Positions 9,101 through 45,100 are shown, numbered from the stretch's first letter. The stretch: 64,000 nt of DNA from an uncultured Gemmatimonadales bacterium (GCA_963851265.1 CAWKNZ010000002.1:64001-128000); one strand, 5' to 3'. A program made the numbers.

Positions 9101-12100
9101 CACGCCCCGCACCCGCCGGAAGGTGTAGTCCACGCCGTTGGTCGCGGCCAGGAACTGGTGCTCGCGCACGTCGAGCGCCTGCCCCGGCGCGAGGTGCATC
9201 GCGATGACGTGCCCGGCCCCGTCGCGGCTGAACCCGATCTCGCCCGGTCCACGCGCCTCGGTCATGAAGATCGGCATCCCCGCCAGCATGCGCGAGAACG
9301 CGCCGCCTAACGGCTTCACCCCCACCTCCACCGAGCGGTTCTTCCAGAGCAGCACGTGGTGCTCGAAATACACGCCCTCCCGCGACAGCTCCACGTGCAG
9401 GACGGGCACGAGTTCGCCCTCGATGTGGTACGTGACGCCGGCGTACGTCTCGTCACGCCGAGCGGTGGGGAGCAGGACGGGGACGATCCGCATGAAACCT
9501 CCGGGGTGGGGCGTGGCAGCCGGCGCGAGCCGTGATTCTACTGCCGCGACCCCACCCCGGCGAGAGCGTCCGGTGTCGGCCGCGCATCCTCCACTTCGTC
9601 CTCCGACTCGATCTGCGGTGGCGGCGCTGGGAATCCCGCCAGCCACTCCCGCACGCACGCGAAGAACGCCGCGCGGTGCGCCACGCCCGAGAACAGGTGG
9701 TCCGCACGCGAAAACACGCGCGTGGTCACCGCACCGTGCGCCGCCCCGCCGTGCGGCACCGCGCGGCCGAGGACCTCCGCCGTCTGCCGCTCGCTGTTGA
9801 AGATGGAATCGAACGTCCCCGTGAACACGAACAGCAGCCGCGCCCCGCGCCCCAGCACCGCGGCCACGTCCGACCGGAAGCGCGCACGCGTCGGGTACTC
9901 GCGCTGAAACACCGGCTGGCCCGCGCTGGCGTCCCCGGCCGGAGCCGTGCGCGCGAATCGCCGCCGCAGCGAGCGCCACCGCGCGAACCGCTGCCAACGC
10001 TCCAGCTGCAGGTACCGCAGGGTCTGGCGGCGCACGTAGTAGCCGAACGTCGGATACGTGTAGCCGTCGACGAACACCGCGCCCACCACGCGCCGGTCCG
10101 CGACCGCTACCGGGTGCATGCTGTCGACCCCCGAACACAGCCCCACGAGTACCACCTCGCGTATGCCGAACTGTGCCTCCAGCCAGTCCAGCGCCTCACG
10201 CACGTCGGCCGTCGCCTGCTCACTACTCCCCTGCGCCCCGGCCCTGGGCAGACTGTCGCCCAACCCCGAGAGGTCGAAGCGCAGGGCGTACCACCCCATG
10301 GCCGCGGCGGCACGCGCCAGCTCCACGTACAGGCGGAATGGCCCGACGTGGTGGCTCAGTCCGATGTTCGCCATCACCACCGCCCGGCGCGGCGCCGCCA
10401 CGCCGGACACGCCCGCGTCCGCCGGGTGCGAGACCACGCCGACCAGCCCCCGGTGCGAGCCGAACACGACGGCGCGCTCGACCACCGCCGTCGCGTTAGA
10501 CATGGACAGGTCCCTGCGGAACGCGCGTCGCGATGTAGTCGCCGATCGCGCCGGGAATGTGGCGCGCCATGAGCGTATCGCTCTCCCAGTGCCCGCCGCG
10601 TGCGAGCGTCGCGTCCGCGACGTGGCGCACCTCGCACCGCCCGCCGCGCGCACCGAGTGCCGCACCGAGCGCCGCGTACTCCGGGCCTTCGTCCGCGCCA
10701 ATCACGAGCACCCGACCGGGCGCACCGCACCCCTCGGCCATCAGGTCCACGGCGGCGATCTCCGCGCGCATCGCCGGCGTCATCAAAAAGCCGAGTAGTT
10801 CGTCCGCCGCGCGGCGATCGTCTTCGGGGTACCTGCGCTCGCCCAGCCCGGACGCCTGCTCCGCGTCGAGCCCTGCGAGGTACTCCACGCCCCGCGCGAC
10901 CGGGTCCCACAGCACGAGGTCCGAAACGGCGAGACCGGCCGCACACGCGCGTGCCGCGACCACGGCGCCGAGCCGTAGCCCGACGAGCGCCGGCCGCCGC
11001 ACCCCGGCCACGTCTTGCAACTCGCGCGCGGCCATGCGCGTGTCCTCCACCCACCGCGCGAGGCTCCCTTCGTCCGACTCGCCCGCCGAGTCACCCGTTC
11101 CCGCATAGTCGAAACGCAGTACGTGCACCCCGGCGGCCGCGAGTGCGGCCGCCAGGCGCCGGTACGCCCAGTGCGCCTGGCGGTATTCCTGCGGCCCCGG
11201 ATAGCAGAGCACCACGCCGCTCCGGCGCGGTGCTGTGACGCGGGCCGCGATCGCGACCGACGCCGGATGGTACACGCCGAACAGCTGGCGGCCGGTGTCG
11301 CCAAAGAATCGGGGAATCATCTGAAGCTCGGGACGTACCTGGACTGTCGCCCGGCTGCTACGGCCCGCCGACCTGCACGTACCGTCCGGGCTCGTTCGGG
11401 TGGGCGACGAACCATGCCGGCGAGCCGTCACGCGCGCGGCCGAGTCGCGCGCCGGGCACGGGCGGCGCGCCGACCGCCGCCGGCGCGGACTCCGCGGGCC
11501 GCGGCGGCAGGAATCCGCCCTCCTGCATCTCGGCCACGGCGCTCGTGAACGCGTCGACCACGAGGCGCAGGTCCTCGGTGCTGTGACTCGCGGTCATGAA
11601 GCAGGGGAACCCGTCGTACACGTGCACGCCGCGGTCGCGCAGCATGTAGAACAGCAGGTCGCCGTGCGGCTGCTCGGCCGTGTAGAACGTCTTCCACACC
11701 GACGCGAAGTGCCGGATCTCGAGCGGCGCGCCCGAGGCGCGGAACATCGCGTTGAGCTCGTCGGCGAGGTCGCGCGTGCGGTCGGCGAGCATGCGCTGCA
11801 ACGCCGGGCCGCGCGCCTTCAGCTCCAGGAGCACGGCCCGCGCGGCCGCGAGCGCGAGCGGGTGGCGCACGAACGTCCCAGCGAAGTACGTCACGCCCAC
11901 CTCGGGCACCGACGCGTCGCCGAACCGCCACGCGCCGCCGTCGAGCGCGTCCATGAACTCGCGCTTGCCCGCGATCACCCCGATCGGCAGCCCCCCGCCG
12001 ACGATTTTGCCGTAGGTCGCGAGGTCGCCGCGGATGCCGAAGTGCTCCTGCGCGCCGCCCGGCGCCGCGCGGAAGCCGGTCACGATTTCGTCCCACACGT

Positions 12101-42100: not shown

Positions 42101-45100
42101 CGGTGGCGACGCCGGCGCGCCGGCCGGCGCCGAGCGCGCCCTGAGCGAAGCCCCGGAGCTCGCGCGGGTTCACGGCGCCCGTGGCGACGACGCCTGCGGC
42201 GTAGACGATGGCGTCGGCAGCTAGGCGCCAGACGCCCGTTGGCGCGAGGAAGTGGTCGGCGACGAGGACGGCGGCGCAGACGCCCGCGGTCTTGGCGAGG
42301 ACGACGGCGAGGCGGCGGTCGACGCCGCGGCGGCCGATGAGCCAGGCCATCATGCCGGCGGCGTAGAGTTCTGTGAGGACGAGCGCGGCGCCCGCGCCGA
42401 CGCCGGCGCCGCCCGGGCCTAACGCGCGCAAGCCGTGCGGCACGAGCCACAGGTTGAGCAGCGGCGAGAGCAGCATGCCGGACATCGACACCCAGCTCAC
42501 GGCCCAGCCGCGCTCGAGGCGGACGAGGACGCTCGCGCTCACCATGGCCGCGTACGTGAGCACGAACGTCGGCGCGAGCAAGCGGAGGCTCATCGCCGCG
42601 GGGGCGAAGGCGCGGCCGAACGCCAGCGCGACGATGGGGTCTGCGGCGACGTAGAGGCCGAGCGACGCCGGGATCGCGAGCGAGAGGATCATCTCCATCG
42701 ACCGGCGCGTGACCAGCATGAGCTCGTCCTCGGAGCGGGCGGCCGCGCGCGAGGTGAGTGGGAGGAGGACCCAGCCGATGAGCGGCGACAGCAGCAGCGA
42801 CATGCCGGCGAGCGTGCCCGCCGCGCCGTACCATCCGACCTCGGTGTCGTTGGTGAGGAACGACATGATGCTGACGTCGACCTTGCAGTAGATCGTCTGC
42901 GCGACGCTGGCCGTGAAGAACGGCAGGCTGGCGCGGATGACGGCGAGCGAGGCGGCGGTGTCGATGCGGAAGCGGAGGCCGACGTGGCGCCGGGAGAGGA
43001 TGGCGAGGGCGGCGGCCTTGAGCGCCTCGGAGGCGAGCATGGCGACGGCGACGCCGATCACGCCCTGGCCGAACGCGAGCGCGACGGCGATGCCGATGCC
43101 CCACACGACCTTTGACGCGACGTTCCAGACGGAGAGGCCGTCGACTTGGCCGACCGCCTGCAGCATCGCCGCGTAAATCGCGTTGAGGTTGAAAATGACT
43201 TGGGCGACGCCGAGCACGACGACGAGGCGGAGCACGTCGTGCGGCTTGCCGGCGACGCCGAGCGCGGCGACGCCCGCGACGAGCACGATGGCGCTGAGCG
43301 CGAGTCGGAGGACGAAGGTGCCCCCGAAGAAGTCGTTCGCGTGCTCGCTGCGGGTGGCGAGTTCCTTCCGGACGTAGGTGTCGAGCCCGAGGCTCGCGGC
43401 GATGAAGATCGTCGACGTGAACGCGTCGGCGAACTGAAAGCCGCCGAAGGCCGCGGGGCCGAGGTGGCGCGGGAGGGCGATGCGGACGAGCAGGCCGACG
43501 GCCCAGGTGCCGACGAGCGATCCGCCGAGTTTGGCCGCGTCGCGCATGGCTCGCCACACGTCGCCGCGCAACTCGCCGCGGTCACGGGGGATCGCGGGCG
43601 CGGCGGCCAGGGTCGGGCCGTAGATCATGTGCGGGGCTACTCGGCGCGGTGTGAGGGGTGATCCGCGGGGGAGATGGGCGGATCGGAGGGGATGGGTGGC
43701 GCGCGGCAGCGGCCCGGGGTGCGGGCGCAGTGCCGTGTTCGCGCGACCCTGGGGAGTGTCGGACGGGTGCGCGGCGGAGTTCAGCGGCACGGCGGCGGGG
43801 CACAAACGACGAGCCGCCGGCGCGAGCATGCTCGCGCCGGCGGCTTCAGGTGGGGCGTGGCTGAAAGACGCCTCGATCAGTACAGGGTCTGGCCGTTACC
43901 GAGGAGGCCGACCTGACAGTCGACGGAACTGTTGAGGCACTGCGTCACGATCGTGCGCATGGTGTTCGTGTCCCAGCCGAGCATCCAGTCGGCGTGGGCG
44001 GAGTAGCCGCCCGGGAGGGCGGTGCTGTACATGTCGGAACTCAGGCGCCACCGGGCAGGGACAGAGCCGGGGAGCACGGGAAAGTCGAAGTGCTCGGTGA
44101 TCTCGGGGAGGGGAACCGGGTGGTCGGCGGGGCACGTGCTCCGGCCCTGCGTGTTCGAGTAGTTGGGGAAGGCCATGTGGCTCTTGTGGTCCGGCGCGTC
44201 GAGGTTGCGGCCGTCCCAGCACTGTGGGAAGATGACCGTCAGGCGCACCGCGTCGCCCACGCCGCACTGCGGGATGCTGCCGGTCGCGTTGTTGCCGTTC
44301 GCGCTGACGCAGCTCCACGAGATGCCGTAGGGCTGATCGCTCGTGCTGGCCGCGCGCATGTTGCCGGCGATGATGCGCAGCCCTTGCGGGAAGGGTTGGA
44401 TCGCGGTCGGGTTCATGTCGTACCCGGTCTTGTAGTAGACGACGGCGAGGTCGGGCACCTGAGCGGTGCTCGTCGCGGGGTCGACGACGGCGGGCATCCA
44501 GTACGCGGAGCGGTTGAGCGTTCCGCCGAGGCAGGTGCCGTTGCCCGAGGTGCTGAGCGAGGCCGCGGTGGACGCGGCGCTCACTCCGGTGTTGCCGAAA
44601 AACATGTGCAGGTGGGAGGCTCCGGCCTGCCCGGGGAAGACGATCGGATCGTCGAAGGCGAACTTGGTCATCCCGCACGTGGTGCGGAACGCGCCTTCCC
44701 CGGGGATGTAGCTCGGCGCCTCGGTCGTCGCCGTCGTCTGCGGGCCGGAGGCGCCCGGGGAGCCGAGCGGGACGGTGATCGTCGTGCCGAGCCCGTTCAT
44801 GCCGGCCATCGGGTTGGCCAGCGTCGTCGTCTGCATGGGGCCGTAGTCGCAGTGGAGCGGCTGGCCGGGCGCGGGGTTCTGGCCGCCGAAGGCGTACGTG
44901 GCGCAGGGGACGCCGTGGTAGGCGGTCTGCTGCACGTAGGGTCCGTTAGGCCCACCGAGGCGCACCGCCCGCAGCCCCATGAAGTCGCACGCGTACCCCG
45001 CGGTGGCGCACTGCGTCCACGCGGTGGTGGCGGGGGGCGCCGGGGTCGGCGGGGGTGTGGGGGCTACGGGCTGCAGCGTCCAGCGCTGATTGGGGCCGGC

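What a model noticed while it worked through the whole genome (the two positions that open the first line are those of the whole stretch)
9538..43628. Thioesterase-less NRPS/PKS-aminotransferase assembly line built into a Wzy exopolysaccharide operon
A Wzx/Wzy polysaccharide operon (priming transferase, Wza-like, EpsV co-polymerase, Wzy, WecG) runs with abutting genes straight into an NRPS (C-A-PCP-C-A'-PCP, second A degenerate), a hybrid A-PCP-KS-AT-ACP-aminotransferase, a PPTase and three alpha/beta-hydrolase-fold proteins. With no thioesterase domain the line most likely makes an amino-acyl/polyketide substituent that is transferred onto the polysaccharide. The module recurs with EPS genes in Gemmatimonadota and Myxococcota.
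Evidence so far: Gene order and domains; g00281 matches TIGR03100/03101 below cut-off, g00291 EpsV. PKS full length (77-83%) with Wzy 10-11 kb away in all 3 genus relatives tested and abutting Wzy in G083; absent from G039. Of 17 close homologues of hydrolase g00285 (of 27 loci, call 171), 12 loci hold the PKS hybrid, 10 the NRPS, 9 a Wzy/Wzx/WecG/EpsZ homologue within 10 kb, 7 both PKS and EPS genes.
(Added by a program. Inside this text positions count along the whole contig: contig position 64,001 is position 1 of the stretch shown here. "Call 12" and the like, gene names such as g00115 and contig names such as C1 are that model's own, and its searches are not shown. The text may have been shortened before it was handed on; [...] marks where a part breaks off. 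The agent that wrote the report below was given it as the finding of a first reader that could run no searches.)

Follow-up and report, generated by a model that had tools for sequence, protein, structure and literature searches.

The report
Peptide assembly line inside slime locus
This soil bacterium keeps a small peptide-polyketide assembly line next to its slime-polysaccharide genes; in place of the usual release domain it has a two-protein enzyme pair that probably grafts a positively charged, amino-acid-derived unit onto the sugar polymer, a chemistry not yet shown in any organism.

Summary
The genes are real, with corrections. A complete Myxococcus-type Wzx/Wzy locus leads into an NRPS, PPTase and A-T-KS-AT-ACP-aminotransferase hybrid without TE. 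One hydrolase lies on the opposite strand, two 211-424 bp gaps break the run, and NRPS module 2 has lost its condensation His as well as its A motifs.

The key part is the last gene pair: an Arg pseudo-hydrolase and a Cys-His-Asp hydrolase. They are predicted to bind (0.84, best control 0.00), follow TE-less carrier domains in most of 80 related loci, and the pseudo-hydrolase is fused into the TE slot in Luteimonas. Canonical TIGR03101/TIGR03100 show the same order behind a free ACP.

Coupling to polysaccharide recurs in separate lineages. In one myxobacterial clade the genome's only Eps-type flippase has moved in front of the PKS; in Xanthomonadales the two halves bracket a Wzx cluster (4 of 4 checked). 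It is not universal: Corallococcus and four other lineages show no such neighbours, and the Eps locus also occurs without the line.

Best reading (0.55): a diamino-acyl peptide is transacylated onto the repeat unit. Product and acceptor are inferred only.

The parts
9538..10503 (-). Hydrolase 1: Cys-nucleophile alpha/beta-hydrolase (GLCSG; Cys123, Asp146, His269), proposed chain-releasing acyltransferase; distant TIGR03100 relative
   Evidence: TIGR03100 65 bits, cut-off 168; C123, S124, H269 invariant and D146 >=90% in 76 homologues; alpha/beta-hydrolase model pLDDT 87.5
10496..11320 (-). Hydrolase 2: pseudo-hydrolase with Arg at the nucleophile elbow (GLRLG); predicted partner of hydrolase 1; distant TIGR03101 relative
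   Evidence: TIGR03101 72 bits, cut-off 203; Arg elbow in 59 of 70 homologues, 2 other, 9 unmatched by the pattern; complex score 0.84 vs best control 0.00; fused after the last T domain in L111/L114
11358..18194 (-). Hybrid A-T-KS-AT-ACP-aminotransferase with a conserved ~35-aa C-terminal tail; A code DAFWLGGTFK (Val, code recalled); start overlaps the PPTase stop
   Evidence: Pfam domains; KS Cys/His/His, AT GHSVG/HAFH, PLP Lys and both carrier Ser present; code; tail alignment
18191..19030 (-). 4'-phosphopantetheinyl transferase (EntD/Sfp type)
   Evidence: PF17837, PF01648
19105..20040 (+). Hydrolase 3: Ser alpha/beta-hydrolase (GFSIG) with N-terminal hydrophobic segment; accessory, opposite strand
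   Evidence: absent at this place in G003, split in G004; in 13 of 80 hydrolase-1 loci and 18 of 80 PKS-tail loci; inside an Eps locus without NRPS in G316
20037..26516 (-). NRPS C-A-T-C*-A*-T, no TE. Module 1 intact (HHIVCDG; A code DISDITGVWK, substrate unknown); module 2 lacks the C His and the A P-loop but keeps the T serine; basic amphipathic C-terminal tail
26540..27457 (-). EpsA-like WecG/TagA glycosyltransferase; 23 bp before the NRPS start
   Evidence: NF041872 284 bits, cut-off 500; PF03808
27454..27933 (-). Small conserved gene of the Eps locus, unassigned
   Evidence: no Pfam hit; conserved in relatives' Eps loci; no likeness to one tyrosine autokinase tested
27930..29192 (-). EpsU-like GT2 glycosyltransferase
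   Evidence: NF041865 436 bits, cut-off 700
29189..30766 (-). Wzy polymerase, Wzy_EPS-like
   Evidence: PF04932; NF041870 357 bits, cut-off 670
30763..32331 (-). EpsV-like polysaccharide co-polymerase
   Evidence: NF041864 288 bits, cut-off 800
32543..33199 (-). EpsY-like short OPX protein
   Evidence: PF02563; NF041843 198 bits, cut-off 320
33213..34427 (-). EpsX-like outer-membrane beta-barrel
   Evidence: ESM Atlas feature hits 0.98 to beta-barrel clusters including PF28089 EpsX; sits beside EpsY; no Pfam/NCBIfam hit
34429..36279 (-). Priming phosphoglycosyl transferase (EpsZ-like C-terminal domain)
   Evidence: PF02397; TIGR03025
36294..37439 (-). Nucleotidyltransferase-like / left-handed beta-helix protein
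   Evidence: PF00483, PF00132
37864..39576 (-). EpsD-like GT2 fused to an EpsC/CysE-like acetyltransferase domain
   Evidence: NF041875 354 bits, cut-off 370; NF041874 105 bits, cut-off 150
39573..40310 (-). Hexapeptide acyltransferase fused to an ACP-like domain whose serine is lost here (WDADG; WTSL in G143)
40307..42070 (-). Hexapeptide acyltransferase fused to a decayed FkbH domain (first Asp lost, about 180 residues shorter after the motif than in G001/G004)
   Evidence: TIGR01686 53 bits here vs 273 in G143; motifs and lengths
42096..43628 (-). Wzx flippase, Wzx_EPS-like
   Evidence: PF01943; NF041871 401 bits, cut-off 800
47443..49152 (-). GH44 glycoside hydrolase, upstream of the given interval; accompanies the Eps locus in relatives
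   Evidence: PF12891; GH44 hits in Eps loci of G143, G316, G041, G341, G427, G466, G343

Best explanation
A thiotemplate tailoring arm of a Myxococcus-type Wzx/Wzy exopolysaccharide system. Inferred steps: the PPTase primes the carriers; the hybrid loads Val, extends it once with malonyl-CoA and transaminates the beta-keto group, giving a 3,4-diamino-5-methylhexanoyl thioester; NRPS module 1 adds one residue (Gly in most relatives, unknown here); module 2 is catalytically dead and only presents a carrier near the membrane. The hydrolase 2/hydrolase 1 heterodimer takes the place of the TE: Cys123 accepts the chain and passes it to a sugar hydroxyl or amine of the undecaprenyl-linked repeat unit before Wzx flips it. 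The polymer would carry a cationic peptide-ketide substituent. Shown: gene content, motifs, synteny, fusions, predicted dimer. Not shown: substrates, product, acceptor, expression.
For: Release device: hydrolase 2 adjoins hydrolase 1 in 75 of 80 loci and NRPS/PKS domains lie within 10 kb in 71 of 80; TE in only 4 of 44 NRPS ends scanned; hydrolase 2 fused behind the last T domain in two Luteimonas loci, and 2-1 fusions in L070, L032, G485; invariant Cys/His; predicted complex 0.84 vs best control 0.00, mark reached by 116 of 157 solved and 2 of 215 mismatched pairs, runs agree in >=69% of contacts, partner pLDDT >=82; 18 of 18 canonical TIGR03100 loci have the Cys elbow, 13 with a free ACP just upstream. 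Polysaccharide coupling: whole locus syntenic in three genus relatives and colinear on one strand in G045; core Wzx/Wzy markers within 10 kb in 23 of 80 loci vs 6 of 214 tiles of G000; in G341, G427, G466 the only Eps-type Wzx match sits directly before the PKS (4-bp overlap in G466) and none was found in the fetched eps loci (one clade, one event); in 4 of 4 Xanthomonadales checked a Wzx cluster with deacetylases lies between PKS and hydrolase 1; G143 has an intact FkbH/ACP/PPTase arm in the slot the NRPS fills here, where that arm is decayed; basic amphipathic NRPS tail in 16 of 37 vs 2-15% of internal windows.
Against: Same module with no polysaccharide genes in the 30-60 kb read in Corallococcus G041 (eps locus intact, 6.5 Mb away), G042/G051, G052, G053, G343. 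In a random phylum sample only 3 of 14 hydrolase-1 loci had a core marker (control 4 of 70), and several end long unrelated PKS/NRPS lines. Only 3 of 15 canonical TIGR03100 loci had a core marker within 10 kb. Lysobacter lines carry an intact TE. The Eps locus exists without the line in G143 and G316. Among 33 long PKS-tail metagenome loci hydrolase 1 was seen in 19 and core markers in 3, though the module fills most of those flanks. No amino-sugar deacetylase or sugar aminotransferase was identified in this window. A free 4-amino thioester could lactamise and release itself (own chemical reasoning). Markers were partly drawn from the loci scored, and the control is one genome.
Confidence: 0.55

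Rival explanations
1. The pair is a split thioesterase that releases a free small molecule (linear or lactam diamino-acyl peptide: signal, chelator or antibiotic); the cluster sits with EPS genes for co-regulation.
For: Module without EPS neighbours in five lineages; the pair also ends long modular PKS/NRPS lines with no glycosyltransferase nearby, e.g. G282, G273; nearest solved folds are esterases; starter residue varies Val/Pro/Thr by code.
Against: Does not explain the flippase moved into the PKS operon, the halves bracketing a Wzx cluster, or why Lysobacter keeps the pair although it has a TE. No dedicated exporter lies in the window cluster.
Confidence: 0.2
2. The pair is a transferase, but the acceptor is not the bulk EPS: a short secreted glycopeptide (carenaemin-like), a lipid anchor of the polymer, or a surface glycoprotein.
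For: Carenaemin needs both an NRPS/PKS-aminotransferase locus and a Wzy locus, and its authors propose attachment to a repeat unit (PMC8313283); canonical TIGR03100/03101 are named for exosortase systems and were seldom beside Wzx/Wzy genes here.
Against: The window holds a full polymerase, co-polymerase and OPX/barrel export set; the line has no fatty-acyl loading or reductive domains to make a lipid.
Confidence: 0.2
3. In this genome the line is decaying cargo of a polysaccharide island.
For: Dead module 2; truncated FkbH and Ser-less ACP here; hydrolase 3 split and PPTase missing at this place in G004.
Against: Hybrid and module 1 keep every catalytic motif checked at 77-83% identity across the genus; the dead module 2 is shared by 20 NRPSs in several phyla, always with loss of the C His.
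Confidence: 0.05

Closest known systems
Myxococcus xanthus EPS pathway (EpsZ, WzxEPS, WzyEPS, EpsV, EpsY, EpsX, EpsU/D/A/C); PMC7484181 passages, PMC9601211 abstract
   Same: All five core functions plus EpsX-, EpsU-, EpsD-, EpsC- and EpsA-like genes; best NCBIfam matches for most of them are the M. xanthus Eps models.
   Different: All below the equivalog cut-offs; another phylum; PMC7484181's main text has no mention of polyketide or NRPS.
Exosortase A-associated hydrolase 1 / hydrolase 2 (TIGR03100 / TIGR03101), function unknown; Bcam1334 of the Burkholderia Bep locus is a TIGR03100-like gene (PMC3584217 passages)
   Same: Same fold, order, Cys elbow and Arg elbow, placed behind a carrier protein.
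   Different: Below cut-offs; elbow GLCSG not GLCD[AG]A; fed by a megasynthase, not by a free ACP with acyl-CoA ligase and PLP decarboxylase.
DltABCD and AlmEFG (recalled, no call)
   Same: Adenylation enzyme plus carrier protein put an amino-acyl group on a surface polymer.
   Different: One amino acid or Gly-Gly, no PKS or aminotransferase; transfer by MBOAT or LABLAT enzymes, not an alpha/beta-hydrolase pair.
Carenaemin of Collimonas arenae (PMC8313283; passages and first part of Discussion)
   Same: KS-AT-aminotransferase hybrid NRPS genetically tied to a Wzx/Wzy locus; attachment to a repeat unit proposed.
   Different: Two distant loci, a thioesterase gene in the cluster, diffusible antifungal, structure and transferase unproven.
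Zeamine Zmn16-19 (PMC5811116 passages); MycA/McyE-type aminotransferase modules
   Same: A stand-alone enzyme conjugates an NRPS/PKS chain to a separately made acceptor; aminotransferase domains make beta-amino thioesters.
   Different: Zmn19 is a C domain and the acceptor a polyamine; products are free metabolites.
RkpA / WcbR capsule-locus PKSs (search listing only; role recalled)
   Same: Type I PKS inside a polysaccharide locus.
   Different: Reducing PKS with a presumed lipid product; no NRPS modules; ABC-type capsule.

Membership tests
Wzx/Wzy-dependent EPS system | Priming transferase, Wzx, Wzy, co-polymerase and OPX in one locus | tested here: met
M. xanthus Eps equivalogs (NF0418xx) | Score above curated cut-off | tested here: not met
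   all below cut-off; EpsD closest, 354 vs 370
Composite OPX/beta-barrel translocon (EpsY/EpsX) | Short OPX gene beside a beta-barrel gene | tested here: met
   218-aa OPX; barrel by Atlas features only
TIGR03100 hydrolase 1 | Score >= 168.45 bits | tested here: not met
   65.2 bits
TIGR03100 hydrolase 1 | Cys elbow, preceded by carrier and Arg pseudo-hydrolase | tested here: met
   (pattern read from 18 canonical loci, not a curated definition)
TIGR03101 hydrolase 2 | Score >= 202.75 bits | tested here: not met
   72.4 bits
Exosortase A system | Exosortase and PEP-CTERM genes in the genome | not tested
   not searched in G000
Canonical TE-terminated NRPS/PKS | Terminal TE or reductase domain | tested here: not met
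MycA/McyE-type aminotransferase module | KS-AT-ACP-aminotransferase followed by a C domain | tested here: met
   split over two genes here; adjacent or fused in relatives
Dlt/Alm-type amino-acylation | MBOAT or LABLAT transferase | tested here: not met
   no such Pfam hit among the cluster's proteins
Dlt/Alm-type amino-acylation | Amino-acyl group found on the polymer | not testable with these tools
   needs chemistry

The most novel reading that the evidence does not exclude
The Arg/Cys alpha/beta-hydrolase heterodimer is an unrecognised chain-release class that transacylates carrier-bound cargo onto surface glycans. With this six-gene module, bacteria of at least six phyla would make peptide-polyketide-decorated, cationic exopolysaccharides, and TIGR03100/TIGR03101 would be the simple, single-ACP form of the same transferase.
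Probability: 0.45. Interest if true: 0.88.

Novelty: new variant of a known kind. Interest (0 to 1): 0.72.

Why it matters
If true, it joins two fields usually kept apart: many 'orphan' TE-less NRPS/PKS clusters would make polymer decorations that extract screens cannot see. It gives a testable function to TIGR03100/TIGR03101, adds a chain-release mechanism to NRPS/PKS logic, and predicts cationic EPS with effects on biofilm cohesion and phage or enzyme access. Cultured carriers exist (Lysobacter arvi, Luteimonas wenzhouensis, Corallococcus spp.), so the test is within reach.

Tried and rejected
Hydrolase 3 read on the minus strand (19027-20418): an antisense shadow. Hydrolase 3 as the release enzyme: rejected as dispensable in the genus and present in an Eps locus without NRPS. 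AIM24 (8708-9493) as part of the system: beside the cluster in only 1 of 3 genus relatives. Small gene as tyrosine kinase: no likeness in one comparison. PDB by sequence and fold: generic esterases only, no solved close relative. Promoter/terminator scan 18000-21000: nothing above chance. Sequencing runs: no RNA holder listed. The hydrolase-1 tree is the quick tree only; polysaccharide-linked loci fall in several supported subclades but the backbone is open, so no ancestral state is claimed. Ten literature searches found no description of this module or of the pair's activity; the library lacks most subscription papers, and supplements (BGC tables of Gemmatimonadota, myxobacterial or Lysobacter surveys) were not read and may list it. 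Only 4 of the 9 Xanthomonadales genomes with both PKS tail and hydrolase 1 were newly read between the two genes (G043 was read earlier); the rest are open.

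
Full report
Observation. The window is G000:C2:64001-128000, about 74% GC; the best-scoring titled hydrolase-1 locus is a Gemmatirosa sp. record. From 43628 down, the minus strand carries Wzx, two hexapeptide-repeat fusions, an EpsD/EpsC fusion, a nucleotidyltransferase-like gene, the priming transferase, an EpsX-like barrel, EpsY, EpsV, Wzy, EpsU, a small gene and EpsA/WecG. Most match M. xanthus Eps models best, always below cut-off; that pathway is described in PMC7484181 (passages) and PMC9601211 (abstract). 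The NRPS starts 23 bp after WecG. Then come hydrolase 3 on the plus strand, the PPTase, the hybrid, hydrolase 2 and hydrolase 1. Gaps of 424 and 211 bp interrupt the Eps run. This is the only condensation-domain cluster in G000. It is syntenic in G001, G003 (to its contig end) and G004; hydrolase 3 is absent in G003 and split in G004, which also lacks the PPTase at this place.

Assembly line. The hybrid keeps the KS triad, malonyl-type AT motifs, the PLP Lys and both carrier serines. Its A code is DAFWLGGTFK, which I read as Val from memory; relatives show Pro-like and Thr-like codes. In many relatives the hybrid is followed directly by the NRPS, or fused to it, which fixes the order hybrid -> NRPS. 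Aminotransferase domains of this kind turn beta-keto into beta-amino thioesters (PMC5811116 passages). NRPS A1 is DISDITGVWK here and Gly-type in most other lineages. Module 2 is dead in both domains. Among 45 NRPSs, 20 lacked the second His of C2 and all 20 lacked a live A2; 17 had both; 8 kept the His without a live A2 (related sequences, not independent). The last carrier keeps its serine. A basic amphipathic tail ends 16 of 37 such NRPSs against 2-15% of internal windows, which would suit a membrane-facing carrier.

The release pair. Hydrolase 1 has an invariant Cys123 and His269 and a near-invariant Asp146 on an alpha/beta-hydrolase fold with Cys at the elbow. Hydrolase 2 has Arg there (59 of 70). 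The two are predicted to bind: 0.84 against a best control of 0.00; the mark was reached by 116 of 157 solved complexes and 2 of 215 mismatched pairs, contact agreement >=69%, partner pLDDT >=82. This supports binding but does not show it. A scan gave 525 relatives, of which the best 80 were read: hydrolase 2 adjacent in 75, NRPS/PKS domains within 10 kb in 71, the aminotransferase plus tail in 37. Of 44 NRPS C-termini scanned (the window plus 43 of 61 listed; 18 near-duplicate or partial ones dropped), 4 had a TE, all Lysobacter, each followed by a further carrier. In two Luteimonas loci hydrolase 2 is fused behind the last carrier. In 18 canonical TIGR03100 loci the Cys elbow was always present and a free ACP stood just upstream in 13. 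I take the pair to be the off-loading device (about 0.85); whether it transfers or hydrolyses is the open point.

For coupling to polysaccharide. Core Wzx/Wzy markers lay within 10 kb in 23 of 80 loci (21 of 56 loci over 17 kb) against 6 of 214 tiles of G000; the markers were partly taken from these loci and 11 rows are one Corallococcus clade. In G341, G427 and G466 the single Eps-type Wzx match of the genome lies directly before the PKS, while the 40-80 kb read around their Wzy holds none, and EpsZ abuts EpsY where G041 has Wzx between them; these three are one clade. In a sample of 151 Xanthomonadales genomes, 10 had the PKS tail and 9 of these hydrolase 1; in the 4 read between the two genes, 22-33 kb apart, all had Wzx, glycosyltransferases and polysaccharide deacetylases, 3 also a Wzy hit. 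G143 has the same Eps locus with an intact FkbH/ACP/PPTase arm after WecG and no NRPS; in the window that arm has lost its Asp, its serine and about 180 residues, as if one acyl-donor arm had replaced another.

Against. The full module has no polysaccharide neighbours in Corallococcus G041, whose eps locus is complete 6.5 Mb away, nor in G042/G051, G052, G053 or G343; action in trans is possible but untested. Hydrolase 1 occurs in 26 of 301 phylum genomes and 46 of 151 genomes of the Corallococcus family. Of 14 phylum loci read, 3 had a core marker (control 4 of 70) and 8 any marker (control 13 of 70); several end long unrelated lines. Canonical TIGR03100 loci had a core marker in 3 of 15 (distant queries, low sensitivity). 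A close Wzy was found in 4 of 301 genomes, and two of these, G143 and G316, gave no hydrolase-1 or aminotransferase match. A metagenome scan with the PKS tail found hydrolase 1 in 19, a TE-like hit in 4 and a core marker in 3 of 33 long loci. Nothing here shows expression or chemistry.

Comparison and novelty. It works like Dlt/Alm amino-acylation (recalled) scaled up to a megasynthase, and like zeamine conjugation with a different enzyme. It is not a member of TIGR03100/TIGR03101 by score. The nearest printed idea is carenaemin (PMC8313283, passages and first part of the Discussion), where attachment of a peptide to a repeat unit is proposed but unproven. Bcam1334 in the Bep locus is TIGR03100-like and was read as a quality-control hydrolase (PMC3584217 passages). 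Ten searches found no account of this module. Earlier notes of this scan reach a similar idea in other genomes; they are unchecked AI notes and not counted as support.

Verdict. Real, conserved and widespread. Best explanation: transfer of a diamino-acyl peptide onto the EPS repeat unit, 0.55; free metabolite 0.2; other acceptor 0.2; decay 0.05. Interest 0.72.

Noticed in passing
window 39573-42070: A second carrier-based arm (hexapeptide-FkbH and hexapeptide-ACP fusions) is decayed here; the FkbH motif is intact in G001, G004 and G143. Suggests glyceryl-ACP-dependent acylation of the same polymer in relatives.
   Followed up: partly
window 43877-49152: DUF1996/ricin-lectin protein, Fn3-GH18 and GH44 genes lie upstream on the same strand; DUF1996 flanks the locus in G001 and G004, GH44 goes with Eps loci widely.
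   Followed up: partly
window 11361-11470 and L044/L109 equivalents: A strongly conserved ~35-residue tail after the aminotransferase domain, possibly a docking element for the NRPS; no Pfam hit.
   Followed up: partly
L109:2749-9099 (Lysobacter arvi): Unusual C-A-T-C-T-TE-T architecture with an intact TE followed by a further carrier and then the hydrolase pair.
   Followed up: partly
NRPS A1 codes: The code DISD[IV]TGVWK was seen only in NRPSs whose module 2 is dead or cut off by the locus end, while live lines read Gly-Gly; one larger residue may replace two glycines.
   Followed up: no
L032:2201-11551 and L206:1746-7716 with L205/L206 junction: Fused hydrolase 2-1 beside acyl-CoA dehydrogenases, DUF1839, a GH2-like protein and a small ORF: another carrier-based context for the pair.
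   Followed up: no
L259-L302 (metagenome loci): The same six genes (PPTase, hybrid, NRPS, hydrolases 1-3) recur in many orders and orientations.
   Followed up: partly
G000 C2 about 1080-1116 kb: A second Wza/priming-transferase/Wzx locus in the same genome, without NRPS/PKS.
   Followed up: no
window 7188-8687 (+) and 57081-58469 (+): Long ORFs with no Pfam hit.
   Followed up: no
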